Shown here piece after piece: positions 16,142-44,041 of a stretch of DNA of 64,000 nucleotides; within the stretch, counting starts at the first letter, position 1; each line of letters begins with the position of its first letter. The notes below the pieces were generated by a model. That model was not told where the DNA came from. It searched no databases and saw only the letters and a program-made list of their open reading frames with translations. Location of the stretch: positions 8,518 to 72,517 of the IMG/VR virus record IMGVR_UViG_3300030382_001297; one strand, written 5' to 3'. The stretch is from a virus. The position numbers and the translations under genes were made by a program.

Positions 16142-16336
16142 TCACTGTTTTATAGCAATGACATCTCTCTTATTCACTACGACTGTACCTTTCTCTCCAG
16201 TAAGGTACACAAAATTATCATCGTCGTGTTTTATCATTCCTCTGCCGACCTTAGTCTTTTCCTCTTCTCGCCATACTACTTTAACCTCTTTATCTTGTAA
16301 AAAAGAAGCAAGTCCTTTACCATCATTTTCGTCCAT
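16142..16336 (-). CDS. Sm/Lsm-like RNA-binding protein
   Basis: 64 aa: short helix then 'L.DKEVKV.....GRGMI..DD..VYL......VVN..DVIAI', matching the Sm1/Sm2 pattern. Own TATA box at ~16415. Confidence 0.55.
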   Translation of the reverse strand: MDENDGKGLASFLQDKEVKVVWREEEKTKVGRGMIKHDDDNFVYLTGEKGTVVVNKRDVIAIKQ

Positions 16337-18904: not shown

Positions 18905-19275
18905 CTATCGTCGCCATCACCCTTTATGGTGTCTTTCACCATGCGTTGATTGAGTTTGTCTATATTGTTTATCATAACGTCATAGAAAGTTATTCCTAGT
19001 ACGTCTAATATGCGTGTGTAGTACCATAAAACATCTCCTAACTCAGACTCCATCGCCTTATTAAAATCTTGTACTACCATCATATCTCCTCTAAGATGTT
19101 TCTTAAATTTTCCTAGTACTTCACCCACTTCATTTGCTAGCCCTATCATTAGGTATTCCATTTCTACTTCTTTAGGATACTGGGCTGTAGTTCTTGTGAA
19201 CTCTTTATATGTTTCTTCCCATCCTAGATTGATAGTCATGCCCTGTGGCTCTTTCTTCTTTTCTTCTTTCACCAT
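18901..19275 (-). CDS. mazG: MazG-like nucleotide pyrophosphohydrolase
   Basis: 'GLANEVGEV..K.KK..R...ELGDVLWY...NIDKL..R...IKG.GD.R'. Confidence 0.88.
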   Translation of the reverse strand: MVKEEKKKEPQGMTINLGWEETYKEFTRTTAQYPKEVEMEYLMIGLANEVGEVLGKFKKHLRGDMMVVQDFNKAMESELGDVLWYYTRILDVLGITFYDVMINNIDKLNQRMVKDTIKGDGDDR

Positions 19276-19607
19276 ATGTTCATCTCCTCTGGTATTATAT
19301 CTCTATTTAAAATCCATTTTCTCTCTGTTGGTAAATATCTATGTACTAAATCAGCCTTGTGTTCTGCTTGTACCACCCACGGCTTAACAAGTATAAGGTC
19401 TCTTTCTCTTACCCACATTCTCCTTTTAAATTTACCACCTATTCTAACCATGCGTATCTTTCCATCTTCACACATAGCTAAAAGTCTCGAACCCCCAGAC
19501 ATCTCACGGACAACAGCGAACTGTTCATTTTTCACTGGTAATTTAACCTTTCTTGTAATGTGTCCTGATGGCTTTGGTTTCTTTTTCATTGTAATCTCCT
19601 TCTGCAT
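19269..19607 (-). CDS. eif1a: Archaeal translation initiation factor aIF-1A homologue
   Basis: 'LP..NEQFAVV.EM.GG.RL...C.DGK.RM.RI.GK.KRRMWVRE.D.ILVKPW.VQ...KADLV.RY' is the canonical eIF1A/aIF-1A OB fold. Confidence 0.9.
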   Translation of the reverse strand: MQKEITMKKKPKPSGHITRKVKLPVKNEQFAVVREMSGGSRLLAMCEDGKIRMVRIGGKFKRRMWVRERDLILVKPWVVQAEHKADLVHRYLPTERKWILNRDIIPEEMNIW

Positions 19608-26435: not shown

Positions 26436-26689
26436 ACAGCATCACTACGCTATTATAGTAGAACACAGTCATTATAGAACAGTGCTCTATATAGTAATAC
26501 TATAAGGAGTTATATAAAGCTTTGCTAAATAGGGCTTATTCCTTATGTCTAAAGTAAGTTTGATGGTCGCCATAGAAGTCATATGGGTCTTTATTGTTAA
26601 TCCATTTCAATGTGCAGTCAGAACAATATCCTCCGAATAAGTCTGATTCTGCTGATGACATACGCTTCCTGCATCTTTTACACCATTTA

Positions 26690-27586
26690 TCACTGTATTG
26701 CACGTTCCCTCACACTCTTAGGTATTTGGTCATATGTGCAATCTTCTACGTCCTTATCGTCTCTCCAATGTAAAAACTTAGGGTGTCTTATACTCCCTGA
26801 TGGATACCATGTATTACCTTTAGCCTTAAAGACCTGACCAATATAAACTTCTGGGTTCTTAGTAAAATCCTGTCGCATGGCCTCAGTGAGACCCCCACAG
26901 GTGACATATACTTCTTTATCATAAAATGTTCCAATTACTCCCCCTACTTGTCCCTCATACTTTGTTCCTTCGTCTGCCATCCTAAAGGAATGACATACAT
27001 ATTCTACTTCAACTACTGCTTTCATTCTCGCCCATGCGTTTCGGTGTTGATACTCACTCGTGCTATCTTTAAACACAAGCCCTTCATATGCTTCACCTAT
27101 AACATAGTGGTCCCATAACTCAGGCCACTGATAAGTCTCATATGTCTCTAAAATGTCGAGCCATTCTAATTCTTGTTTACATTGTTCCCAAGCCCATTCC
27201 GAACATAAAGTTCTTTCAGCTAACTCTTTTGATTCAATGTTTTTACCTTCAAATCTCAAGCAATCGAATATATAAAACTCACCATCTATATCTCTTGTGT
27301 GCGCCCAATGGGAACCATACATATATTCTCCCAACAGAACAGAGTCTATTGTTGAATCTGATATAACTCCCTCACTCTTTTTCTTACCTGTTCTTGAGTA
27401 TATAGCCCACTGTCCATTATTTATTATAAGACAACCCCAGATACCATCCATCTTCATTTGAACCATATCGTATTGTATTGGAATCTCCCTATCCTTACGA
27501 TAGATTAACTCTCTAAACTTCGGTCTATCTACTCTTGCTGAATCTATAAACTTCTCATGTGCGGGAAACCCTGTTATATCTTTCAT
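26690..27586 (-). CDS. lig: Minimal ATP-dependent DNA ligase
   Basis: KxDG (KMDG), 'YSRTGK', 'LLGE', 'FYIFD', 'EGLVFK', 'RMK', and OB-fold end 'RHPKF..WR.DK'. Confidence 0.9.
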   Translation of the reverse strand: MKDITGFPAHEKFIDSARVDRPKFRELIYRKDREIPIQYDMVQMKMDGIWGCLIINNGQWAIYSRTGKKKSEGVISDSTIDSVLLGEYMYGSHWAHTRDIDGEFYIFDCLRFEGKNIESKELAERTLCSEWAWEQCKQELEWLDILETYETYQWPELWDHYVIGEAYEGLVFKDSTSEYQHRNAWARMKAVVEVEYVCHSFRMADEGTKYEGQVGGVIGTFYDKEVYVTCGGLTEAMRQDFTKNPEVYIGQVFKAKGNTWYPSGSIRHPKFLHWRDDKDVEDCTYDQIPKSVRERAIQ

Positions 27587-27745
27587 TATTCCTCTAAATA
27601 TCTTCTTACCATTTTTATGCTATCTTTAAGGGATTCATTTTCTGTTGTCTCAGCTACTTCAAAATCCATATCACATAACATATGTAATGCCTTCTTCCTA
27701 TCCATGTATCGAAGAACTACTCCCACTAAATGTAGGGCTTCTCCT

Positions 27746-27973
27746 CTATTGGTGACCATTCGTTTCTCCTATGTCTAATTTCTCTCCGTAAGGTCTCCAC
27801 TCACTATCAGTCTGTTCGTGTCCTTCTATCTGACATTCTGGACAGTAGTGTTCAATATACCTACTATCATATCCATGTCTCCTTTGGGAAGTCATAAGCG
27901 TATTGCATGGTCTCTCATCGAGTGTCTTTCTTTGACATCTCTTATAGTATAGAGGACTTCTCATTGTTCGCAC
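27746..27973 (-). CDS. Small Cys-containing hypothetical protein
   Basis: ORF track. Confidence 0.45.
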   Translation of the reverse strand: MRTMRSPLYYKRCQRKTLDERPCNTLMTSQRRHGYDSRYIEHYCPECQIEGHEQTDSEWRPYGEKLDIGETNGHQ

Positions 27974-28257
27974 CTCTCACATCCGTTCCGGCAACATTCT
28001 TTACTCATGCCTTCTTCTATCTCTGGGTCAGGTTTCCAAATACCTTTAGCCATTATATCTTTCAGCCATTCATCTTGATACCTTAGTGGCATCTCCATAT
28101 ATATAATCTCAGCTATAGTGCTGATACATTCCTCATATTCTTTATATGTTTTGACTAAGCGTGTCTCTTCATTCTCACCACTACCTTCTGCGATAGGGGT
28201 AACCATCTGGTTTTTCTCATACGTTCTACCGTCAGTGTATTCTGTTTTATATGTCAT
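27961..28257 (-). CDS. Hypothetical protein
   Basis: GGAG RBS; Cys-rich C-terminus. Confidence 0.5.
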   Translation of the reverse strand: MTYKTEYTDGRTYEKNQMVTPIAEGSGENEETRLVKTYKEYEECISTIAEIIYMEMPLRYQDEWLKDIMAKGIWKPDPEIEEGMSKECCRNGCERCEQ

Positions 28258-28406
28258 TATTACTCCTGTTTATATTTTCTTGGTCTTAATGTTAATTTCT
28301 TTTTACTAAATCCAAATTTAGTGTCTATCCATACTACTATTTCTCTTATCATTTTTCATTTCTCCATAATGATATTTCAATATATATCAAATATCTATTT
28401 AAAGGT

Positions 28407-29010
28407 TGTGGTAGAGAGAGATATGAACCCAAAACAAAACTGAAAGATATAAAACCGTCATCCTTGTTTATCACTCGCAATGAGCTTACTCCTTGTGTAG
28501 TTATATATCACACTATACTTATCTTAACTACCGCATCGGCTGTTGTGCAGAGGTATAATGTTCTCAGTATATAGTTCAACAGTGACATATGCTTCTCACG
28601 AACTAAAATCGGTCTATGTCTTTCATCCTTATATACCTGCGTTCACAGTTGGTAAGCATATATGTTCATGCTCATTATGTCCTTCTAACGGACAGTGAAC
28701 TACCACATGACTCAGTGACTCTACTTCTTCTGTCGTGAACGCTTTGATAGGTCTCGCTTGACGTATAGGCATGCCATCTCTCAAGATGGACGCACTCCTA
28801 TACTTGGTTCTCTTATGTGTAGCACCATAACTGCTACCACACCTATCTCATAGTGTTTCTGTCCTAACTCCCCGCTTAGGGTAATGACGCTATTATGATT
28901 AAGCGTATGGGCTTTGTTATCACTATGTATCTCATAGAGCTTGCTTGATTAGCTCAATCACTCTATGTTTCTCAGCGACTTTTGGGCGTATGATTCAGGT
29001 CTCTACCACA
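28407..29010 (-). ncRNA. Candidate large ornate non-coding RNA (~604 nt)
   Basis: No ORF of 60 aa or more. Perfect 11-bp terminal stem (28407-28417/29000-29010) plus at least 10 nested internal helices. Strand inferred from flanking genes. Confidence 0.7.
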
Positions 29011-29017
29011 TTTAGTG

Positions 29018-29085
29018 GGATAGGAGCTTCGAGAGGTAAAATGAGCCAAACAACTGTTAAGAAATAAGGTTTGAAACTCCTATCC
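29018..29085 (-). ncRNA. Candidate 68-nt stem-loop small RNA
   Basis: 13-bp terminal stem with one G-U pair that forms only on the minus strand; pyrimidine-rich loop. Confidence 0.5.
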
Positions 29086-29199
29086 TATCACCTTAGGTTT
29101 AAAACTTTAGGAACATCCACATCCATATCATAGTAAAGAATGCTATAAGTATATACCATTCAGCTTCTTGTATGTCTCGTGGATTACTCCATAATTCTT

Positions 29200-29727
29200 T
29201 TAGTCTTTTATATATTCTCCTGTATGTATCTTTATGCATTGTTGCTTTCCTCTATCATATGCTTCGAGATGTCCTCTGTAAAAATCCCATGCATCTCTAT
29301 TAGCATATAATTTCTTCTTATCATAAGTAGTGGCATAGTAACTCTTTGACTTACTTGCCTCCCAATCATCTTTCTTTAGGTTTTTCCCAGCGATAAAAAA
29401 CTCAGGAGTATTATCAGTTCTCAGTATCCAATGGAGGAATATAAAATATCCTTCCCTCTTACTGTAAGTTCCACTGAACCACGTTTCTCCTGATGTTGTC
29501 TTTATCTCTACTGGATGACCACCCAAACGTATGTCTGGTTCAGCATCTATCTTTGGTGCTACGGCATCCTCTATCAATTCAGCCATAGCATTTTCAAGTA
29601 GTCCACTTATATCTTCTGACTTTTGTTTCTTAGTTTTAAAGAGACTCTTCTTATCATAGAAGTCAAACAACTCTTTAGTATCGCTTGTCAATCTCTCTAT
29701 CACTGCTTTGTTTATGATTTCCTTCAT
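29200..29727 (-). CDS. PD-(D/E)XK restriction-endonuclease-like protein
   Basis: 'EPDIRL....VEIKTT'. Confidence 0.6.
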   Translation of the reverse strand: MKEIINKAVIERLTSDTKELFDFYDKKSLFKTKKQKSEDISGLLENAMAELIEDAVAPKIDAEPDIRLGGHPVEIKTTSGETWFSGTYSKREGYFIFLHWILRTDNTPEFFIAGKNLKKDDWEASKSKSYYATTYDKKKLYANRDAWDFYRGHLEAYDRGKQQCIKIHTGEYIKD

Positions 29728-29991
29728 CTATACTGTGCCTCCTATTCTCACGTAGCAAATCTGACAATAGGGGTTTCCGCTTGTATCTCTATACCTGATA
29801 TACTCTAATGCTAATCTACATTTACACGTATTACAATTACTCATCCGTCATCTCCATCTCTTCGCATTCCCAGTCATATATTGCTTGGTCTATCTCACTC
29901 CAAACTTCTTTAGGCATAGGGACATCAACTTCATTATCATCTTCATCATAGAAGACTATCTTATAAGATATAATCTTTTGCTTATAATCCT

Positions 29992-32136
29992 TCATACTTT
30001 TATAACCCTCCTGATTATCTTTGATACTGCTGGCGCAAGGTTATCTATATTACTAACCATTATATGGTTGTTAAACATCTTTTGTTGTGCATACTTATCT
30101 GCTCCGCTTATTCCTACTTGAATAATTGACCATCCTTTACCTTCTAAATGATTTACTACCTTTCGCACGTGACTCATACCATCATAACCACCATATCCAG
30201 ACGCAGCCGGCTGACCGTCGGAGTATATAATCATAAGCTTGTTAGACATAGGCTGTGAAGATTCTTTACTAACTCTTTCAGCCGCCGCCCATATAGCCAT
30301 ACCATCTCTATTTTCATATCGAGCTATCATAGCTCCCATAGCCATAGGTCTATCTTTCATATTCGGCCCCCAATATTCAGTCATATTGGTCGAACCACAA
30401 TCTGTATGCCATCCAGCTTCACCATCAGCAGTATGACCAAATACCCATAAGTCTAATTTGGGATTATCCTGTAAAGCTTCTTTCGTAGCGATAGCTGACT
30501 GTCGAGCCATCTCCATCTTCCACGAACCCATACTACCTGATTCATCTACCAATATACAAATGTCTAATGGTTTATCATCTTCAATTATATCATTCTTAAA
30601 CAAATCCTTACGACCTAATGGTATTCTGTGAAGCATACGCTTATCTATCTTACCACGCTTCTGATTACGGATAGTATGTTTTTGTGTATTACCATATAAA
30701 TCTATCTTACGCTTGAGTGAATTACTTATCTTCTTCATATTTTTAGATTCTGCCTTATATTTAACTCTTTGACCTTCAGTAGGTCGAGCTTTACGCCAAG
30801 TGATTTTCTTTTGGTTCTTGTATATAAGACCAACCTCAGTCATCTCAGTTTCCATATAGTCACTATCTTCAAGTTCTTCTATCTCTTTTGATATTTCATC
30901 GGCTAATGCACTACTCTTAGCATCTAACGTATAGTCTACTGCTTCTTCAAGTTCCCTCATCCCATCTGAGTCTTTCATTAGCTTACGAACATCAGACATA
31001 CGACTTCTTTTACGTTCTATGTCTTTCTTAATTGAATCCTTTATGGATTCCCACTGTTCATCAGTTAATAAATCACCATCAGTCATAGACTTTTTGAGTT
31101 TGTCCATCTCTTTCTCGATATCTTTCTTCATATCCTCGCCGGAGCCTTTATCTTTAACCATCTTTTCGGCTACTGCTTTAAGATAATGGAATAGTGCTTC
31201 TATACATTCAAAGGTATTTTCTCTACTATCCAATCCATTCTTTAACGCACGTGCAAAAAATCTTATATGCTTTCCGTGACGCTTTCTGCGAGTGTCGCCC
31301 ATATGTTCCGGCCATCTAATGAAAGCTAATAGAGTATTCAGTATATCCATAAATGGATTATCTTCTATCATTTCTAATTTAGTTTCCATCTTCTCCTTGA
31401 AAAAGTGTTTCTTAACTTCAGAAATATATGTCACAAACCCAGCGTTATCTTTAGCTAACTGCTTTTCTATGTATTCATCTTCTACTGAATTAGCGATAGT
31501 ATGTAGTAATGTTCCTTCATATGTATCTTTTACTAATTCTGTTGCTTTCCTCTTTTCCCATCTATATAATGGTTTACTATGAATGAGGTGTAACTTTTCG
31601 TGTATAGCTAATCCTGCTGTTATATCTAAATTGTCATCACTCTTCTTTAGTAGAGACCCATCTATGCGTATGAGTCCTCTTTCTAAATCAGAATAGTTCT
31701 GACCTTCATAATTGTAATCTAACTTATGCGATACTGTTGGGTCTACAACTTTACATAGAGAATCTAAATGTCTCTTATGTTTCAGTAATCTGGTCGCATC
31801 ATCTTTATCAGCGTGGGAACTACCCCAACTACCCCACATACTTGACGTAGAGCCTGTGGATTGTCCTTGCCACCAGCCACCACCACCCCAAGTATAGGAA
31901 CTACTACGGTTCCACATATCTCCGGTGGAAGATATAACGGGTGAATCTTTTATCGCAACTTTTGCTGTTGAAGCAGTAGTGAATCTATCATCATAATCTA
32001 ATGGAGTTTCACATATAGGACATTTATCCTCATGCGTAGCTTCTATCCATTTACTACAATCATAGCAGTAATCATCATCTGATACGCCTGTCCACTTATC
32101 TATATCGGTGTGGTGTGGTTCGTGTTTAATAACCAT
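29992..32136 (-). CDS. VWA-domain protein (CobT-like partner of MoxR AAA+) with HExxH motif and N-terminal Zn finger
   Basis: MIDAS 'LVDESGSMG', 'SDGQP', 'HEKLH', CxxC...CxxC. Confidence 0.8.
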   Translation of the reverse strand: MVIKHEPHHTDIDKWTGVSDDDYCYDCSKWIEATHEDKCPICETPLDYDDRFTTASTAKVAIKDSPVISSTGDMWNRSSSYTWGGGGWWQGQSTGSTSSMWGSWGSSHADKDDATRLLKHKRHLDSLCKVVDPTVSHKLDYNYEGQNYSDLERGLIRIDGSLLKKSDDNLDITAGLAIHEKLHLIHSKPLYRWEKRKATELVKDTYEGTLLHTIANSVEDEYIEKQLAKDNAGFVTYISEVKKHFFKEKMETKLEMIEDNPFMDILNTLLAFIRWPEHMGDTRRKRHGKHIRFFARALKNGLDSRENTFECIEALFHYLKAVAEKMVKDKGSGEDMKKDIEKEMDKLKKSMTDGDLLTDEQWESIKDSIKKDIERKRSRMSDVRKLMKDSDGMRELEEAVDYTLDAKSSALADEISKEIEELEDSDYMETEMTEVGLIYKNQKKITWRKARPTEGQRVKYKAESKNMKKISNSLKRKIDLYGNTQKHTIRNQKRGKIDKRMLHRIPLGRKDLFKNDIIEDDKPLDICILVDESGSMGSWKMEMARQSAIATKEALQDNPKLDLWVFGHTADGEAGWHTDCGSTNMTEYWGPNMKDRPMAMGAMIARYENRDGMAIWAAAERVSKESSQPMSNKLMIIYSDGQPAASGYGGYDGMSHVRKVVNHLEGKGWSIIQVGISGADKYAQQKMFNNHIMVSNIDNLAPAVSKIIRRVIKV

Positions 32137-32497: not shown

Positions 32498-33802
32498 TTA
32501 ATCACCCATTGATTGTATTGCTTGAATAACTTTAACTCTATCAGTGTCGTCACCAGCAGTTATAGGATAGAATGGTAAGCAAGTATGCTTAAGTGCATCA
32601 AGCAAAGTCATACCATCTACTACTAATTCACCTACTGACAAACACATACGAGTAGAAACAGCTACGTTTAACTCTTCTGCTTTATATAAATCTCTAATCT
32701 TCTTAGCAAATTCAGTTATACGCCTTGCGTCATCATCTTCGAGATGTGGAACACGATTCTGTAATAGTTCCTGTTCTTTATTCTGTGGTAGGTAATCTAA
32801 TTCGTATATACCTCCAGTGAATCTATCCTTCCAAGCTCTATCTAAGTCGTTGGCCGCCCCAAGATATTCTCTACCTATGTTAGCAGTAGCGAAGAAGAAT
32901 ACGTTAGTATCTAACTTAACTATGTCTGCGTCATCACTTTCGTCTAACGCTAAGTATCTTTGACCATCTAACACAGGCATAAGTATATTACCTAAGTCGC
33001 CTGTCCTATCTCTTGTCACTTCGTCAAGCATAATGAATGCTCCACTGTTATCTTCTAAGGCTGATACGAAACGAGATGGCTTAAACCACGTTCCATCCTC
33101 TTGATTATACTTTGTGTCTCCTAATAGCTTTGCCGCCGGATTCATAGTATCCCCAAAATTGAACTGATGGAATGGTTTGTTAGTTATCTCTGCCAATATC
33201 TTACCTAAAGATGACTTACCGCAACCGGATGGCCCTGTCACAAGTATATACTTATTCCTAAAGATGTTGCGTAGCATAGTATAAAATGTCATACTATCTG
33301 CGAACTTAAACTCTTCAGGTATAGCTACGCTTGACTTAAGCTTTCCTATCACACTGTCATCAATAACAGGTATAATAGGTTCTTCTTTTATTGCTTCAGC
33401 CATAAAATCATCTACGGCTGTCTCCCTATCATCTCGCATAGCGTCACCGCTTTCTATATCCTCATCCAATACTGAATGGTCTGGACTATCTCCTATATCT
33501 TCTATCGGAGTCTCATGCCCTATGGCATCTTCTGCTGGCTCGGATGACTCAGGATATCCTCCTACGTCATCTCTATATGTCTCTTCTGACTTCATTTTTT
33601 TTACCTCTTTATGTATATCTTCGAGTTCTACCTCTAATCTTGATATCATTTTGTTGTATTCTTCGAGAGCTTCGTGGTCTATCACAGGCTCTCCCATAAC
33701 TTTATCTTTGCATTCATTCATGAAACGTAGCTTATCTTCTACTTTTACTTGCTTAGTTGTTAGTTCACCTAATTTAGCGAACTTCTCACTTCTACTACTC
33801 AT
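32498..33802 (-). CDS. MoxR/CbbQ/CobS-like AAA+ ATPase
   Basis: GPSGCGKS, 'MLDEVTR', 'ATAN', 'LDRAWKDRF', 'STR'. Confidence 0.87.
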   Translation of the reverse strand: MSSRSEKFAKLGELTTKQVKVEDKLRFMNECKDKVMGEPVIDHEALEEYNKMISRLEVELEDIHKEVKKMKSEETYRDDVGGYPESSEPAEDAIGHETPIEDIGDSPDHSVLDEDIESGDAMRDDRETAVDDFMAEAIKEEPIIPVIDDSVIGKLKSSVAIPEEFKFADSMTFYTMLRNIFRNKYILVTGPSGCGKSSLGKILAEITNKPFHQFNFGDTMNPAAKLLGDTKYNQEDGTWFKPSRFVSALEDNSGAFIMLDEVTRDRTGDLGNILMPVLDGQRYLALDESDDADIVKLDTNVFFFATANIGREYLGAANDLDRAWKDRFTGGIYELDYLPQNKEQELLQNRVPHLEDDDARRITEFAKKIRDLYKAEELNVAVSTRMCLSVGELVVDGMTLLDALKHTCLPFYPITAGDDTDRVKVIQAIQSMGD

Positions 33803-33912
33803 CTACCAACCTCTCATATCACATAGGCATTTATTATGTTCTACTGCACAGTCGCATACTATACATACTTCTATACCCATCTCATCTATCCTTAAAGGTT
33901 CTATATCTTTAT

Positions 33913-38572: not shown

Positions 38573-39070
38573 TTAATACCGCTGGCCTAAGAGCGCCACA
38601 TTAATGACTGAGCTTAGGCCTTGAGTATAAGGTTTAGGGGTGTAGGTCGTGAGAACCCACTCGCACTAACCACGGGATTACAACCGCGTGCCTCCGGAAG
38701 GCCTATAAATTTTGTGCTTCGCCATTCTTGTCAAGCGCCCCTATTTTTATACTGGGGTATTAATCCAGTCTTAAAACAAATATCAGAACGACAACGCTAA
38801 AGTATACGTCTTAGCGTCTGTGAACTTCCTACTCATTAATAAGTATAAGGTGTGAGGGAGGATTCAAGGTTAACCTCCAAAGACTACCGGCCCAAATACC
38901 TAAGTATTGTCCGCACTTACCACTCACCACCCTCTCACGCATTTGCGCATTGAGGCAGGTTTGTGTGCCTTACCCCCTTTGGGAAGGGGTTATTCAGCCA
39001 CTCACGATAACGGGATATCTCCCATTAATATAAGGTGTTGGGTCGGGATTCGGCCCCTGAAACCCAACAC
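38573..39070 (-). ncRNA. Hairpin-dense ORF-poor region; candidate structured RNA(s)
   Basis: About 10 stems in 500 nt, GC richer than flanks. Most wobble pairs favour the minus strand. Confidence 0.5.
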
Positions 39071-41402: not shown

Positions 41403-42467
41403 ATGATAGAGATGAAAGACCTAATGGAGACTTCTCTGGTAGCACAGTTACTAGAGAAGGGAGGCAGAATTGAGCCTCTTATAGTAGAGAACAGTAAGTC
41501 AGATGGGTTGGGATTATGCAACCCGTCAATTTGGCATAAAGAAGGTACAACCAAGTACTTAGTTAATGTAAGGAAAGTTTCTTATTACTTACACCACTGT
41601 GAAGGAGAACAGAAGTATCAGACCCCTTGGGGCCCCCTGAATTATGTTCGCCCCGACGATGACCCTTATTTAAGAACAGATAATTTTATCTGTGACTTTA
41701 ATTTAAGGAATATGAAATTAACTAACCCCCGAAAGATAAACACTAACAAGTTTACCAAAGAACCTGAATGGGACTTTGTGGGACTAGAGGACGCTAGGAT
41801 TGTCGAGTGGGAAGGAAAGATGTACGTAACTGGCGTTCGGCGCTACGCGCCGGATGGAAAGGGAAGGATGGTATTGTCCGAAATTGATATTACACCAAAA
41901 GGTGTGAAGGAGATAGGACGTTATGTCATGTTACCCCCAGAAGGTGAAGAGAATTACTGTGAGAAGAATTGGATGCCTATATTAGATAAGCCGTTTCACT
42001 TCGTGAAATGGTCTAATCCTATAGAGGTTATTAAAGTGGATATAAATAAAAAGTGGAAGAACAACCCTAAGAAATATCGATGTCCAAGTAGTTACGTATT
42101 CAAAGGAGACCCTAAGAAGAAACTACCCTTCCAGTTAGACCCACGTGGTAGCTCTCAGGTAATACCTTATCATGGTTATTACATGGCTATCGTACACGAG
42201 TGTGATTACTGGCACAATGATAAGAACGATAGAGATTCACATTATTACCATAGATTTATGGTATGGGATAAAAAGTGGAACGTAGTGACTTATTCAGACC
42301 CATTCAAGTTTATGGATGGACGTATAGAGTTCTGTTGTGGAATGGCTGTGCACCCAGATGGAAATGACGTTTACGTTACCTTTGGGTTCCAAGATAATTC
42401 TGCATACAAACTACATATACCTGCTGAACACTTAAACACTATGTTGGAGTTCCCTAAGAAAGAATGA
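41403..42467 (+). CDS. Five-bladed beta-propeller glycosidase/phosphorylase-like protein (GH130/GH43-like)
   Basis: 'NPSI', 'GLEDARI', 'EKNWMP', 'RGSSQ', 'IEFCCG', 'TFGFQD'. Confidence 0.7.
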   Translation: MIEMKDLMETSLVAQLLEKGGRIEPLIVENSKSDGLGLCNPSIWHKEGTTKYLVNVRKVSYYLHHCEGEQKYQTPWGPLNYVRPDDDPYLRTDNFICDFNLRNMKLTNPRKINTNKFTKEPEWDFVGLEDARIVEWEGKMYVTGVRRYAPDGKGRMVLSEIDITPKGVKEIGRYVMLPPEGEENYCEKNWMPILDKPFHFVKWSNPIEVIKVDINKKWKNNPKKYRCPSSYVFKGDPKKKLPFQLDPRGSSQVIPYHGYYMAIVHECDYWHNDKNDRDSHYYHRFMVWDKKWNVVTYSDPFKFMDGRIEFCCGMAVHPDGNDVYVTFGFQDNSAYKLHIPAEHLNTMLEFPKKE

Positions 42468-44041
42468 AGAACGACTATTGGAGAACCACAGACTGGCCTA
42501 CGCTAGAAATAACAACATCTATACCTAAAGCAGGGTGTGTAGTTGATTGTGTCTTTTGCCCACAACGAGTTTTACAAAAGGTGTGGGATAGCGAACACTT
42601 CACTACAGAAAAAGCTAGAATCATGAGGTTAGAAGACTTCAAGATGGTAGTTGATAAATTACCTAAAGAAGTTAGAATAACCTTCTCTGGTTTTACTGAA
42701 CCTTGGTTAAACAAAGATTGTTCAACGATGGTGCAATATGCACATCTCAAGGGACACCCTGTATCTGTATTCACTACAGCCGTAGGTATGAGTCTTAAAG
42801 ATGTTAAAATGATTTCGCATATACCTTTCTGTGGAGGACCCAATGGTGGATTTACATTACATCTACCTGATAAAGAAAGACTGGCTAAACACCCAGTAAC
42901 TAAAACATATATTAAAGTAGTACAAGCGTTAAAGGACGCTGACATTACAAACTTCCAAACCATGTCAATGGGGGAAGTCCACGAAGAAGTGGAACATATA
43001 TATCCCGATAAGACAGTTAATAAATATGAAATGTGGCATCGAGCAGGTAACCTATTAGGTGAAGCTCAACTGAAGCCAGAAGTAAAAGAAGTATGGGATA
43101 GATTCAAATCTGTTTACCATGAAGGAGATAAAACATGTGGTTGTATAGAAGGTTTATATCATAACATACTATTACCTAATGGTGAAGTATCGCTATGTTG
43201 TATGGATTATAACCTAGAAGAAATAATAGGTAATTTGTATACACAAGAATATGATGATATAATGCCTAAACCACAAACATGCTATGACATGTGTAAAAGA
43301 TGTGAGAATGGAGTAGACCCCATAACTAGCAATTCTAGTATGGTTAAAGAGTATGGTGTCGCAGACGCATTGTCTTGCGACCACTTTATAGCACCTGATG
43401 AGATGGTACAGTATTTAGGCTTCGATATGAACCCTGATAAACGTGTACCTGAAGCAGACATCATACAAAGCATGAGGGAATATATAAACCCTAGTGGAAC
43501 ATTTGTAGATGTGGGTGCACATATAGGAACTTATACATGGTTATTAGGACCTTATGCTAAGGAGGTTTATGCCTTTGAGCCTACTCGTAGAATTTATAAT
43601 CATCTATGCGCTAATGTTTTATTAAAGAACCTTTCTGACAAAGTAGAAACTTATAATATAGGATTATCTGATACTAATGGTAAATTACCATTTTATGAGA
43701 GACAACCTGATGGAGGAACTAATGGTTTCACAGAAATTGGTTGGAAAGAAGATGATTCTTATATGCTGCCTGTTCTTAAAATGGATGAGTTTGATATAAA
43801 AGATATAAGTTTAATTAAGATAGATGTAGAGGGACACGAGCTTCAAGTTATCAAAGGAGCTTCTGAAACCCTTAAGAATAATAATTACCCTCCTATTCTC
43901 TTTGAAAGTTGGGAACCTACGAGGTCCCAAAGAGCAGGAGAACTTAGAACGGAGCTGTTTAATTATTTATATGAAATAGGATATACTGTCTGCCAGACAG
44001 AATCTCCTGAGATATTTTTAGCAAAGAAGGAAAAATTATGA
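42464..44041 (+). CDS. Radical SAM (SPASM/twitch-like) fused to FkbM-family methyltransferase
   Basis: CxxxCxxC (CVVDCVFC), 'GEVSLCCMD...IGNL...C..C..C'; C-terminal 'VDVGAHIG', 'AFEP', 'IKIDVEGHE'. Confidence 0.85.
   Translation: MKNDYWRTTDWPTLEITTSIPKAGCVVDCVFCPQRVLQKVWDSEHFTTEKARIMRLEDFKMVVDKLPKEVRITFSGFTEPWLNKDCSTMVQYAHLKGHPVSVFTTAVGMSLKDVKMISHIPFCGGPNGGFTLHLPDKERLAKHPVTKTYIKVVQALKDADITNFQTMSMGEVHEEVEHIYPDKTVNKYEMWHRAGNLLGEAQLKPEVKEVWDRFKSVYHEGDKTCGCIEGLYHNILLPNGEVSLCCMDYNLEEIIGNLYTQEYDDIMPKPQTCYDMCKRCENGVDPITSNSSMVKEYGVADALSCDHFIAPDEMVQYLGFDMNPDKRVPEADIIQSMREYINPSGTFVDVGAHIGTYTWLLGPYAKEVYAFEPTRRIYNHLCANVLLKNLSDKVETYNIGLSDTNGKLPFYERQPDGGTNGFTEIGWKEDDSYMLPVLKMDEFDIKDISLIKIDVEGHELQVIKGASETLKNNNYPPILFESWEPTRSQRAGELRTELFNYLYEIGYTVCQTESPEIFLAKKEKL

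What the first reader, a model, noticed from the sequence alone, without database searches (positions are those of the whole stretch)
28407..29010. A ~604-nt ornate, fully nested structured RNA candidate in an archaeal virus
Seen in sequence: an ORF-free 600-nt gap in an otherwise densely coding operon, closed by a perfect 11-bp stem (TGTGGTAGAGA 28407-17 / TCTCTACCACA 29000-10) and extended by CCCAAAA 28428-34 / TTTTGGG 28980-86. Inside are mutually compatible, side-by-side domains: AGGTATA 28551 / TATACCT 28632; GCGTTCAC 28639 / GTGAACGC 28735 (enclosing TGTCC/GGACA and AGCAT/ATGCT); GATAGGT 28746 / ACCTATC 28841 (enclosing GTATAGG/CCTATAC, CCATCT/AGATGG, GTAGCA/TGCTAC); CATAGTG 28849 / CACTATG 28921 (enclosing CCTAA/TTAGG, ACGCT/AGCGT); and CATAGAG 28933 / CTCTATG 28961 (enclosing TGATT/AATCA). 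Established knowledge: size and multi-junction architecture recall large ornate bacterial/phage ncRNAs such as ROOL, GOLLD and OLE. Inference: this is either a divergent member of such a class in an archaeal virus or a new class. I could not recognise RNase P, SRP, tmRNA or intron signatures.
Basis: partly seen in the sequence, partly recalled or inferred. Interest (0 to 1): 0.9.

Follow-up and report, generated by a model that had tools for sequence, protein, structure and literature searches.

The report
New modular structured RNA, archaeal-type virus
The gene-free gap in this ocean virus holds a real, evolutionarily conserved folded RNA of a family not found in the RNA catalogue, built from a fixed base and a swappable set of arms; what it does is still unknown.

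Summary
Observation confirmed. The gap has no long ORF. Both strands fold better than shuffles (z -4.0 minus, -5.3 plus).

Relatives show a conserved structured RNA read on the window's minus strand, the sense of the neighbouring genes. P1 has at least 9 different sequences. H0 cells are 93.8% paired, 0 of 500 shuffles as good. One arm, domain C, has changes on both sides at 21 of 22 pairs. G.U pairs far outnumber A.C, which points to RNA on this strand.

The body ranges from 194 to 609 nt. H0 and the base helices P1-P2-P3 are constant, and the arms are shuffled modules. Rfam has no match. Contigs from four RNA libraries lie on the element.

The RNA sits in a fixed gene block, cobS-cobT-(nuclease)-p46-RNA-promoter-p30/p98-ligase-RecU.

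Function is unknown. An anti-ribosome-binding-site role for the H0 loop is only partly supported: 4 of 7 records.

This scan noted the same family earlier on other genomes.

The parts
29014..29092 (-). H0: 5' hairpin. Outer 3-4 bp (GGUG/CACU), a 3-nt bulge, a 10-bp main stem (29085-29076 with 29027-29018), and a large loop.
   Evidence: (I8). On 30 distinct sequences 93.8% of cells are paired, 6 of 13 pairs change on both sides, and 0 of 500 shuffles reach this.
29032..29047 (-). Near-invariant single-stranded loop motif GGCUCAUUUUACCUCU. Family consensus: CUCAU, a U-rich spacer, then ACCUC(U/C). It is the exact complement of a Shine-Dalgarno sequence plus AUGAG.
   Evidence: It is kept in distant relatives whose remaining loop sequence differs.
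29011..29016 (-). Linker ACUAAA between H0 and P1.
29000..29010 (-). P1 5' arm, UGUGGUAGAGA.
28407..28417 (-). P1 3' arm, UCUCUACCACA.
   Evidence: 140 of 143 cells are paired, and there are at least 9 different stem sequences.
28980..28999 (-). Conserved junction GAC(C/U)UGAA..CAUACG, then the P2 5' arm GCCCAAAA (28987-28980).
28427..28445 (-). P3 3' arm (28445-28439), a U-rich internal loop, and the P2 3' arm UUUUGGGU (28434-28427).
   Evidence: P2 covaries: CCCAAGA/UCUUGGG and CCUAAA/UUUAGG.
28970..28976 (-). P3 5' arm, GCUGAGA.
   Evidence: 83 of 98 cells paired.
28933..28967 (-). Lineage-specific arm (CAUAGAG...CUCUAUG).
   Evidence: Found only in the window and L004.
28849..28927 (-). 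Module A, closed by CAUAGUG/CACUAUG. It also occurs in type-2 relatives, at a different place in the RNA.
   Evidence: The closing stem covaries to AUAAGUG/CACUUAU-type.
28746..28847 (-). Domain C. Helix C1 (GAUAGGU/ACCUAUC), hairpin C2 with loop ..UUGG, conserved GAACCAAGU (28810-28802), helix C3 (GUAUAGG/CCUAUAC), and conserved ACGUCAAGC (28764-28756).
   Evidence: Model R1 gives 27 hits. 93.1% of cells are paired, 21 of 22 pairs change on both sides, and 0 of 500 shuffles reach this.
28639..28742 (-). Arm closed by GCGUUCACG/UGUGAACGC.
   Evidence: L063 keeps it as GCGUUUGCG/UGUGAACGU through G.U pairs. Other relatives carry different arms here.
28446..28638 (-). 3' arms, including the module GGUAUAUA...GGAUGAAAG...GACCGAUUUUAGUUCGUGAGAAGCA...CACUGUUGAAC...UAUAUACU, and a distal arm.
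   Evidence: The closing stem covaries: GGUAUAGA/UCUAUACU.
28396..28403 (-). TTTAAATA box of the next transcription unit, starting 4 nt after P1. It is followed by a conserved leader and the 30-aa ORF 28352-28260.
   Evidence: A box of this kind follows P1 in nearly all complete elements.

Best explanation
This is a gene for a large, modular structured non-coding RNA of an uncatalogued family. It is carried by uncultured marine tailed viruses with archaeal-type features.

It is read on the window's minus strand, about 29092 to 28407, roughly 690 nt. The constant part is a platform with three pieces:
- a 5' hairpin (H0) that displays the single-stranded motif CUCAU, U-rich spacer, ACCUC(U/C)
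- a 6-nt linker
- a long irregular base helix (P1, conserved junction, P2, P3) that brings the two ends of the body together

On this platform sits a variable crown of 2-7 stem-closed arms. The arms come from a shared repertoire of modules, so the body ranges from 194 to 609 nt.

The structure and the strand are shown. The rest is inferred. The RNA is probably made together with, or just after, the cobS-cobT block and accumulates as a stable RNA that works in trans as a scaffold or decoy. The H0 loop is the most likely functional contact. It is complementary to a strong ribosome-binding site plus start codon, so it could mask translation-start regions of viral (or host) mRNAs, while the arms bind proteins or other copies of the RNA.

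My odds: real structured RNA family about 0.9; minus strand about 0.85; trans-acting stable RNA about 0.5; anti-start-site pairing by H0 about 0.25.
For: Covariation.
- P1 pairs in every complete element although its sequence differs: UGUGGUAGAGA/UCUCUACCACA..AGAAA/UUUCU.., UGUGGUAAGG/CCUUACCACA, UGUGGUGAAG/CUUCACCACA, UUGGUAGAGA/UCUCUACCAA, GAUAACUGAGA/UCUCAGUUAUC, GUCAGUAUAGA/UCUAUACUGAC, GUAGCAAGA/UCUUGCUAC, GAUAGCAGAA/UUCUGCUAUC. 140 of 143 cells are paired.
- H0: 93.8% of cells paired against 87.0% in shuffles, 6 of 13 pairs changed on both sides, 0 of 500 shuffles as good, slid controls 42-61%.
- Domain C: 93.1% against 68.1%, 21 of 22 pairs changed on both sides, covariation score 0.483 against 0.151, 0 of 500 shuffles, slid controls 25-50%.

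Strand.
- In H0, scored with G.U and A.C weighted alike, there are 31 G.U/U.G cells and 2 A.C, both from a misdetected row.
- In domain C there are 23 against 9.
- P1 has U.G in L018 and L065/L066, and U.G plus G.U in L040/44/45, with no A.C.
- All 27 hits of model R1 lie on the gene-sense strand.

Composition. Purine skew drops inside the element: GC skew about -0.10 against -0.25 to -0.38 in the flanking genes.

Not a catalogued family.

RNA libraries. Contigs of 4 RNA runs from 3 studies match exactly at 28464-28616, 28658-28929, 28710-28998, 28751-28998 and 28630-28858. Loose ends of related contigs run from the body into an H0 3' arm.

Fixed genomic place.
- Loci found through the RNA itself (L125, L288, L290) and through cobS (L301, L303, L304) all place it in the cobS-cobT ... 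ligase-RecU block.
- It is present in 3 of the 3 cobS-anchored loci that reach far enough downstream.

Own promoter in some relatives. A canonical TTTAAATA box lies 15 nt upstream of H0 in L031, L033 and L057.

H0 loop as an anti-start site. The cobS start region is the best predicted partner in four records:
- the window: rank 1 of 105, -19.4 kcal/mol against mean -8.7, sd 3.6
- L125: rank 1 of 38, with a continuous 13-bp duplex
- G001 and G003: the top site of the sense strand, z about -4, at the GTG start
Against: - No transcript ends, strand or abundance have been measured. The RNA-run data are contigs, which cannot show strand or ends, and DNA carry-over in those libraries cannot be excluded.
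- The plus strand folds at least as well.
- In the window there is no room for a promoter before H0, because the p46 coding sequence ends 6 nt upstream. The RNA may therefore be only the 3' part of the operon mRNA.
- The cobS pairing fails in 3 of 7 records: it is not among the best sites in L301, L303 and L304. A sliding scan of the whole window finds 4-5 sites as good. The search for close matches to the loop's target in the window gave 2 sites, and 17 of 100 shuffles gave as many. The loop may therefore just complement any strong start site, or may bind a protein.
- Domain C is missing from type-2 relatives and from the 194-nt minimal form, so no arm is universal.
- RNAalifold on a plain MAFFT alignment of domain C recovered only 4 pairs. 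The strong counts come from an alignment fitted to my model, which leans towards that structure.
- The sequences are related, so the shuffle tests overstate significance.
Confidence: 0.55

Rival explanations
1. It is a cis-acting part of the operon mRNA: a long structured 3' untranslated or intercistronic region. It would protect the cobS-cobT-nuclease-p46 message from 3' exonucleases, or stop or insulate transcription before the next promoter. It would have no function of its own in trans.
For: In the window and in L288, L290, L301 and L304 the element follows p46 directly, with no space for a promoter. Its 3' end abuts the TATA box of the next unit in nearly all complete elements. It is co-oriented with the flanking genes in every locus.
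Against: A mere protective structure would not need near-invariant single-stranded motifs, such as the H0 loop, CAUACGCC, GAACCAAGU and ACGUCAAGC. L031, L033 and L057 have a canonical TATA box just upstream of H0. In L016, L025 and L028 the element sits in a different place relative to the nuclease gene, and in L125 it follows the ligase gene rather than p46. So it moves as a unit of its own.
Confidence: 0.2
2. The functional strand is the plus strand: an RNA antisense to the operon, perhaps starting at the TATA-like box 28396-28403 read in reverse and ending at the SD plus ATG mini-ORF at 29035-29061.
For: The plus strand folds slightly better against shuffles (z -5.33). On the plus strand, 29032-29047 reads as a textbook SD plus ATG.
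Against: G.U pairs in the minus-sense reading would be A.C mismatches on the plus strand: 31 against 2 in H0 and 23 against 9 in domain C, plus U.G pairs in P1. The plus-strand mini-ORF is not conserved. The spacing between the ATG and the stem arm is 6, 18, 20, 21, 29 or 30 nt in relatives, and the peptides end after 4-8 residues or run on.
Confidence: 0.05
3. It is a DNA-level element, such as a replication origin, packaging site or recombination site made of hairpins or cruciforms.
For: It lies inside the replication-gene block (PolB, ligase, RecU, RNR). Hairpins are symmetric in DNA, and both strands fold well.
Against: There is no GC-skew turn at the element. The strong excess of G.U over A.C is strand-specific. 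Covariation keeps long-range pairs 190-600 nt apart. Contigs of RNA libraries lie on it. It is a single copy with no repeated short boxes.
Confidence: 0.04
4. It is a very divergent member of a known large RNA family: ROOL, GOLLD, OLE, HEARO, RNase P RNA, or a group I/II intron.
For: The size and multi-arm architecture, and carriage by a virus, resemble ROOL and GOLLD as described in 10.1101/2024.12.08.627333 (passages read).
Against: No Rfam model reaches its threshold in the gap, and none of these families appears even at E<=10. There are no tRNA genes in the 64-kb window, whereas ROOL and GOLLD often lie near tRNA islands.
Confidence: 0.02

Closest known systems
GOLLD and ROOL RNAs (large 'ornate' RNAs of phages and prophages; Rfam RF01998 and RF03087, accession numbers as quoted in earlier scan notes)
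   Same: Several hundred nucleotides long, with many stem-closed arms. Carried by tailed viruses. Function unknown. GOLLD likewise has one universally conserved region and a less conserved one (10.1101/2024.12.08.627333, passages). Here the platform is constant and the arms vary.
   Different: No sequence or structure match to either model. No nearby tRNA genes. The virus has archaeal-type features. The arms are shuffled modules, and the body can shrink to 194 nt. Multimeric cages are not tested.
OLE RNA (large ornate RNA of Firmicutes; described in 10.1101/2024.12.08.627333, passages)
   Same: About 600 nt, highly structured, and thought to work with protein partners.
   Different: No Rfam match. 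OLE is a cellular bacterial RNA, not viral. No OLE-associated protein genes were seen here. That such genes (oapA-type) exist is recalled, not tested.
Y RNAs with Ro60 (a lead from earlier scan note e1-370402)
   Same: An RNA whose 5' and 3' ends form a long, irregular closing helix, encoded next to a gene for a vWA-domain protein.
   Different: The 714-aa neighbour has VWA and CobT_C domains and no TROVE domain, even at E<=5. It pairs with a CobS-type AAA+ gene. This RNA is 3-6 times longer than Y RNAs; Y RNA size is recalled.
Small RNAs that mask ribosome-binding sites (for example Methanosarcina sRNAs; recalled, and named in earlier scan note e1-6095237)
   Same: An exposed loop complementary to SD plus start codon. 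The best predicted partners are translation-start regions.
   Different: Here the loop sits on a 300-700-nt ornate RNA. No single conserved target was established: cobS in 4 of 7 records.

Membership tests
ROOL (Rfam) | Scores at or above the family's covariance-model threshold. | tested here: not met
   cmscan of the window at gathering thresholds gives only manA, elsewhere. cmscan of 27900-29500 at E<=10 gives no ROOL hit.
GOLLD (Rfam) | Scores at or above the family's covariance-model threshold (conserved 3' domain). | tested here: not met
   no GOLLD hit, even at E<=10.
ROOL / GOLLD | Often encoded near tRNA islands of phages or prophages. | tested here: not met
   ARAGORN finds 0 tRNA genes in the 64-kb window. 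The feature is taken from passages of 10.1101/2024.12.08.627333.
ROOL / GOLLD | RNA-only multimeric nanocage held together by kissing loops. | not testable with these tools
   No RNA 3D or oligomer tool is available. The recurring loop UAAUCAUWAU is only a lead.
OLE, HEARO, RNase P RNA, group I/II introns, tmRNA, SRP RNA (Rfam) | Scores at or above the family's covariance-model threshold. | tested here: not met
   ARAGORN finds no tmRNA.
Y RNA / Ro60 system | An adjacent protein with a TROVE domain. | tested here: not met
   Pfam scan of the 714-aa neighbour at E<=5 gives VWA, CobT_C and weak zinc-ribbon hits, and no TROVE.
Structured non-coding RNA (general) | Base pairs kept through compensatory changes in relatives. 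| tested here: met
Structured non-coding RNA (general) | A discrete transcript of defined strand and ends. | tested here: inconclusive
   Contigs of 4 RNA runs lie on 28462-29005, but contigs show neither strand nor ends.
Protein-coding gene or pseudogene | An open frame, or a frame conserved among relatives. | tested here: not met
   ORFs are at most 51 aa, with 12-25 stops per frame. Element length varies from 194 to 609 nt, with unalignable arms.

The most novel reading that the evidence does not exclude
This would be the first class of large 'ornate' RNA in viruses of archaea. It would be a self-contained RNA device with a conserved platform carrying an anti-Shine-Dalgarno/anti-start-codon loop. 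That loop would capture translation-start regions, so that the RNA competes with the 16S rRNA 3' end for them. The interchangeable arms would recruit proteins or assemble copies of the RNA into a higher-order particle. The virus could then re-programme translation during infection using RNA alone.
Probability: 0.15. Interest if true: 0.92.

Novelty: categorically new. Interest (0 to 1): 0.8.

Why it matters
Large structured RNAs with several conserved domains are rare. Each known class (ribosome, RNase P, introns, OLE, GOLLD, ROOL) has proved biologically or structurally instructive. I found none described for viruses of archaea in my four literature searches, for which I saw only listings and a few passages.

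This family has a clear architecture: a fixed platform and shuffled arms. It holds a fixed place in the replication and cobS-cobT block of abundant deep-ocean viruses, and it appears in metatranscriptome assemblies. That makes it a concrete target for cryo-EM, for strand-specific read mapping, and for testing whether a virus can regulate translation through an RNA that mimics the anti-Shine-Dalgarno end of 16S rRNA. It may also bear on why so many marine viruses carry cobS and cobT.

Tried and rejected
- **Rfam.** Nothing in the gap at gathering thresholds or at E<=10.
- **blastn of the gap against 50,697 phage records.** No match.
- **PolB against the same records.** Best identities are 21-23%, so there is no close cultured relative.
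- **A 749-nt 'closed element' in L022, L024, L028 and L051.** It rests on a chance 8-nt match and is coding sequence with small zinc-finger ORFs. Rejected.
- **Exact-motif scans.**
  - The 19-nt H0/P1 motif found only L002's contig.
  - The 17-nt loop motif gave 29 viral stretches, of which 1 (L125) holds the element.
L125 matched the pattern again. The cellular matches are weak and explained by the pattern itself. This does not show that the element is absent from cellular genomes.
- **RNAalifold on a plain MAFFT alignment of domain C.** It gave only 4 pairs, because the arms are offset by indels. I then used a covariance model.
- **Promoter before H0 in the window.** The AAAGTTTTAAAC there is the end of the p46 coding sequence. 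Rejected as a promoter.
- **Bulge-helix-bulge processing motif at the base.** The 4-bp UGAA/UUCA helix of the window is not kept in relatives. Rejected.
- **Plus-strand mini-ORF.** Not conserved.
- **Pairing of the H0 loop with the start region of the downstream 30-aa ORF.** -8.8 kcal/mol, which is average.
It rests on a part of the loop that varies among relatives.
- **TROVE/Ro60 lead.** No TROVE domain.
- **'Sm-like' 64-aa ORF.** No LSM hit at E<=5.
- **RNA-run contigs.** None lie on 28200-28461, on 29006-29300, or on most flanking genes. Because these are contigs from runs chosen for holding this stretch, I draw nothing from those gaps.
- **Literature search.** It was mis-set (any term) and useless.
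- **Supplementary files of papers.** Not opened. They could hold RNA annotations of magrovirus-type genomes that I did not see.
Full report
**What is at the site.** The window is bases 8518-72517 of a 72.5-kb IMG/VR virus record, and the element occurs once in that record. From about 9.8 to 34.9 kb the genes run on the minus strand.

The flagged stretch lies between a 175-aa gene (29200-29727) with an overlapping 46-aa ORF ('p46', 29099-29239) and a 30-aa ORF ('p30', 28260-28352) followed by a 98-aa gene. The closing arms are 11 nt long and perfectly complementary.

Start-codon ORFs in the gap are at most 51 aa, and each frame has 12-25 stops. Both strands fold better than dinucleotide shuffles: z -4.03 for the minus strand and z -5.33 for the plus strand, with 20 shuffles each. 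Energy alone therefore shows unusual structure but not the strand.

**Known families.** cmscan of the whole window at Rfam gathering thresholds gives one hit, manA RNA at 38847-39027, which is not in the gap. A permissive scan of 27900-29500 at E<=10 gives four chance-level hits, the best being U6 at 18.7 bits against a threshold of 44. There are no tRNA or tmRNA genes in the window. blastn of the gap finds nothing in 50,697 phage records.

**Relatives.** Using the 175-aa protein as a handle, I fetched 80 metagenome loci (the best of 171 relatives) and 33 viral loci. A profile of the 5' boundary found the element in 41 of the 115 sequences searched. This count includes the window and a few duplicate contigs. 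A profile of the 3' boundary found 26.

Further copies came from three sources:
- an RNA-motif scan (L125)
- a domain-C pattern scan (L288 and L290)
- cobS-anchored loci (L301, L303 and L304)

The first relative, L002, already showed the key pattern. Both flanks and the closing stem are conserved, the stem changes in a compensatory way (UGUGGUGAAG/CUUCACCACA), and the interior is 279 nt instead of 604 nt and cannot be aligned. L002's element also folds well, with z -4.9 and -5.1 over 200 shuffles.

**Architecture**, read in the sense of the genes.
1. *Hairpin H0* (window 29092-29014). It has an outer 3-4 bp, a 3-nt bulge and a 10-bp stem. Its large loop varies in length from about 30 to about 70 nt, but it always contains CUCAU, a U-rich spacer and ACCUC(U/C). 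The more distant relatives add a small inner hairpin with the loop CCACGAGA.
2. *A linker*, ACUAAA.
3. *P1*, of 9-14 bp.
4. *A junction* with conserved GAC(C/U)UGAA and CAUACG.
5. *P2* (GCCCAAAA/UUUUGGGU in the window), *a U-rich internal loop*, and *P3* (CUGAGA/UCUCAG). Co-folding the two ends of 17 elements gave this same base in all type-1 members.
6. *A multi-branch crown of arms.*

Body length from P1 to P1:

| Length (nt) | Locus |
|---|---|
| 194 | L301 |
| 279 | L002 |
| 346 | L125 |
| 362-369 | L040/44/45 |
| 391-395 | L072/65/66 |
| 450 | L031 |
| 466 | L082 |
| 473 | L290 |
| 493 | L053 |
| 496 | L083 |
| 510 | L033 |
| 518 | L008 |
| 519 | L063 |
| 532 | L018 |
| 565 | L009 |
| 567 | L011 |
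| 569 | L006 |
| 604 | window |
| 607 | L004 |
| 609 | L304 |

The P1 assigned to L303 (329 nt) is uncertain.

The arms are modules that recur in different combinations and orders. Module A (window 28927-28849) precedes domain C in type-1 elements but lies late in type-2 elements. Domain C is absent from type 2 and from the 194-nt form. A 10-nt hairpin loop, UAAUCAUWAU, recurs on unrelated stems.

**Covariation.**

*P1.* At least nine different stem sequences all pair. On the alignment of 15 type-1 elements, 140 of 143 cells pair. For this count I left out L004, which is near-identical to the window, and any row with more than a third gaps in a helix.

*H0.* I aligned 30 distinct sequences out of 42, dropping identical copies and two rows (L034, L035) where my arm detection failed. 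93.8% of cells pair against 87.0% in column shuffles. 6 of 13 pairs change on both sides, 0 of 500 shuffles reach any of the five measures, and slid controls give 42-61%. The only unpaired cells come from three rows (L037, L044, L045), where MAFFT offsets the arms by one column.

*Domain C.* RNAalifold on a plain alignment found only 4 pairs. I therefore built a covariance model from three close sequences with a hand-set structure and searched 100 sources. It gave 27 hits, all on the gene-sense strand. On their alignment, 93.1% of cells pair against 68.1% in shuffles, 21 of 22 pairs change on both sides, the covariation score is 0.483 against 0.151, 0 of 500 shuffles reach this, and slid controls give 25-50%.

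Two caveats apply to these numbers. The domain-C alignment is fitted to the model. The sequences are also related, so the shuffle counts are not probabilities.

*P2, P3 and several arm-closing stems* also covary:
- CCCAAGA/UCUUGGG and CCUAAA/UUUAGG in P2
- GGUAUAGA/UCUAUACU
- AUAAGUG/CACUUAU

**Strand, and RNA rather than DNA.** I detected the H0 arms with a score that treats G.U and A.C alike. The stem then has 31 G.U/U.G cells and 2 A.C cells, both in a misdetected row. Domain C has 23 against 9, on a model-fitted alignment. P1 has U.G or G.U in three lineages and no A.C. The closing pair of P2 is G.U in most members and G-C in L011 and L018.

On the plus strand these G.U pairs would be mismatches. 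Purine skew, which is strong in the flanking coding sequence, nearly vanishes inside the element, and there is no skew turn. The plus-strand reading of the H0 loop as an SD plus ATG mini-ORF fails because neither the spacing nor the peptide is conserved.

**Expression.** Of 24 runs listed for 28200-29300, 6 are RNA libraries that hold part of it. I laid four of them, from three studies, on 26500-31000. Contigs match exactly at 28464-28616, 28658-28929, 28710-28998, 28751-28998 and 28630-28858. Some pieces match 29412-29682. Other contigs match part of the element and then diverge, as mosaic relatives would, and two loose ends continue into an H0 3' arm of the L031/L033 type. This shows presence in RNA libraries. 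It does not show strand, ends or level.

**Genomic setting.** The virus encodes TerL, a portal protein and an HK97-type capsid protein. It also encodes PolB, an ATP-dependent ligase, RecU, RNR, MazG, an eIF-1A-domain protein and a CobS/CobT-like AAA+ and vWA pair. Its PolB is at most about 23% identical to any phage record.

An archaeal host is inferred from the eIF-1A domain and from TTTAAATA boxes placed about 45-50 nt before start codons. cobS-cobT clusters are known in archaeal and bacterial tailed viruses (PMC8651126, passages).

In loci found without the nuclease handle, the order is cobS-cobT-p46-RNA-p30/p98-p57-ligase-RecU in L288, L290, L301 and L304; L303 keeps the same order for the genes detected there. 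L125 has cobT-ligase-RNA-p46-RecU. The nuclease gene is absent from L125, L288 and L290. In some metagenome loci the RNA lies upstream of the nuclease gene, or about 1.3 kb downstream of it. The RNA is thus a stable member of this block and moves as its own unit.

**How it might work.** The constant parts are H0 and the base, so the function probably resides there, and the arms add variable partners.

The H0 loop is the exact complement of a strong SD followed by AUGAG. Results for the cobS start region as its partner are mixed.

In four records it is the best predicted partner:
- In the window it ranks 1 of 105 (-19.4 kcal/mol against a mean of -8.7, sd 3.6).
- In L125 it ranks 1 of 38, with a continuous 13-bp duplex.
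- In G001 and G003 the best site of the sense strand of a 4-kb locus is the GTG start of cobS (z about -4).

In the three cobS-anchored records it is not:
- In L304 it is not among the six best sites.
- In L303 the candidate starts score z -1.0 to -1.7.
- In L301 they score z +0.7.

A sliding scan of the whole window also finds several equally good sites. In every record the best sites look like start regions. The loop may therefore recognise strong start sites in general, or the motif may be a protein-binding site. I keep this as an inferred sub-hypothesis at about 0.25.

How the ends of the RNA are made is open. There is no promoter room upstream in the window. A canonical box lies 15 nt before H0 in L031, L033 and L057. 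The next unit's TATA box begins 1-4 nt after P1.

**Comparison and novelty.** The closest analogues are GOLLD and ROOL: virus-borne, large, multi-armed and of unknown function. GOLLD also has one constant and one variable region. Membership in those families is excluded by the model scans.

My literature searches listed no paper describing such an RNA in viruses of archaea. I saw listings only, plus passages of two papers:
- 'magrovirus': 22 papers, 12 listed
- GOLLD + ROOL + archaea: 3 papers, 2 listed
- 'archaeal virus' + 'structured RNA' + covariation: 3 papers, 2 listed

Earlier notes of this scan, e1-5908497 and e1-5908499, describe what is evidently the same family on other genomes: an 'unchanging base stem and a swappable top', on the same strand as the genes, inside the replication block. 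They agree with what I found independently here, but they are not independent evidence.

**Verdict.** The function is unresolved.

Noticed in passing
window 38847-39027 (-): A manA RNA (RF01745) hit at 55.4 bits, just above the gathering score of 55.2.
   Followed up: no
window 29099-29239 (-): A 46-aa hydrophobic ORF (p46) whose stop lies 6 nt before H0. Homologues of 48-67% identity sit next to the RNA in L125, L288, L290, L301, L303 and L304.
   Followed up: partly
window 28260-28403 (-): A strongly conserved TATA box, leader and micro-ORF (p30, MIREIVVW...) directly after the RNA. The leader ATATGATATRTTATGATAWTACGGAGAAAGAAAATG is nearly invariant among relatives. A weak second match of this flank lies at 35345-35299.
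   Followed up: partly
window 29200-29727 (-): A 175-aa protein with invariant E-P-D-I ... E-x-K residues, which looks like a PD-(D/E)XK nuclease motif. It has no Pfam or PHROG hit. It has 93 metagenomic homologues. It is present or absent, and changes place, relative to the RNA.
   Followed up: partly
window 33780-33810 (-) and cobS starts in L125, L297, L298: The cobS start region is the best predicted partner of the H0 loop in 4 of 7 records. cobS starts with GTG in two of them, and its N-terminal ~130 aa are poorly conserved.
   Followed up: partly
window 29003-29010, 28834-28841, 28700-28707 (-): UGUGGUAG occurs three times in the window's element. Each copy could pair with the 3' end CUACCACA, giving alternative closures of 604, 435 and 301 nt. 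This is not conserved in relatives.
   Followed up: partly
window 16142-16336 (-) and 19269-19607 (-): The 64-aa ORF that another first-stage note calls Sm-like has no LSM hit in Pfam at E<=5. The 112-aa ORF has an eIF-1A/IF-1 domain at E 1.3e-15.
   Followed up: partly
window 42464-44041 (+): A 525-aa protein that fuses radical SAM and SPASM domains with an FkbM-type methyltransferase domain.
   Followed up: no
L301 10623-10816: A minimal 194-nt version of the RNA body: P1, P2, P3 and two small arms, with no domain C. It folds at -58.6 kcal/mol, z -6.1 against mononucleotide shuffles.
   Followed up: partly
arms of many relatives, e.g. window 28892-28901 (-): A recurring 10-nt hairpin loop, UAAUCAUWAU, closed by unrelated stems (ACGCU/AGCGU, AUCCC/GGGAU, UACC/GGUA, UGUC/GACA) at different places in the arms. 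It may be a protein or loop-loop contact site.
   Followed up: no
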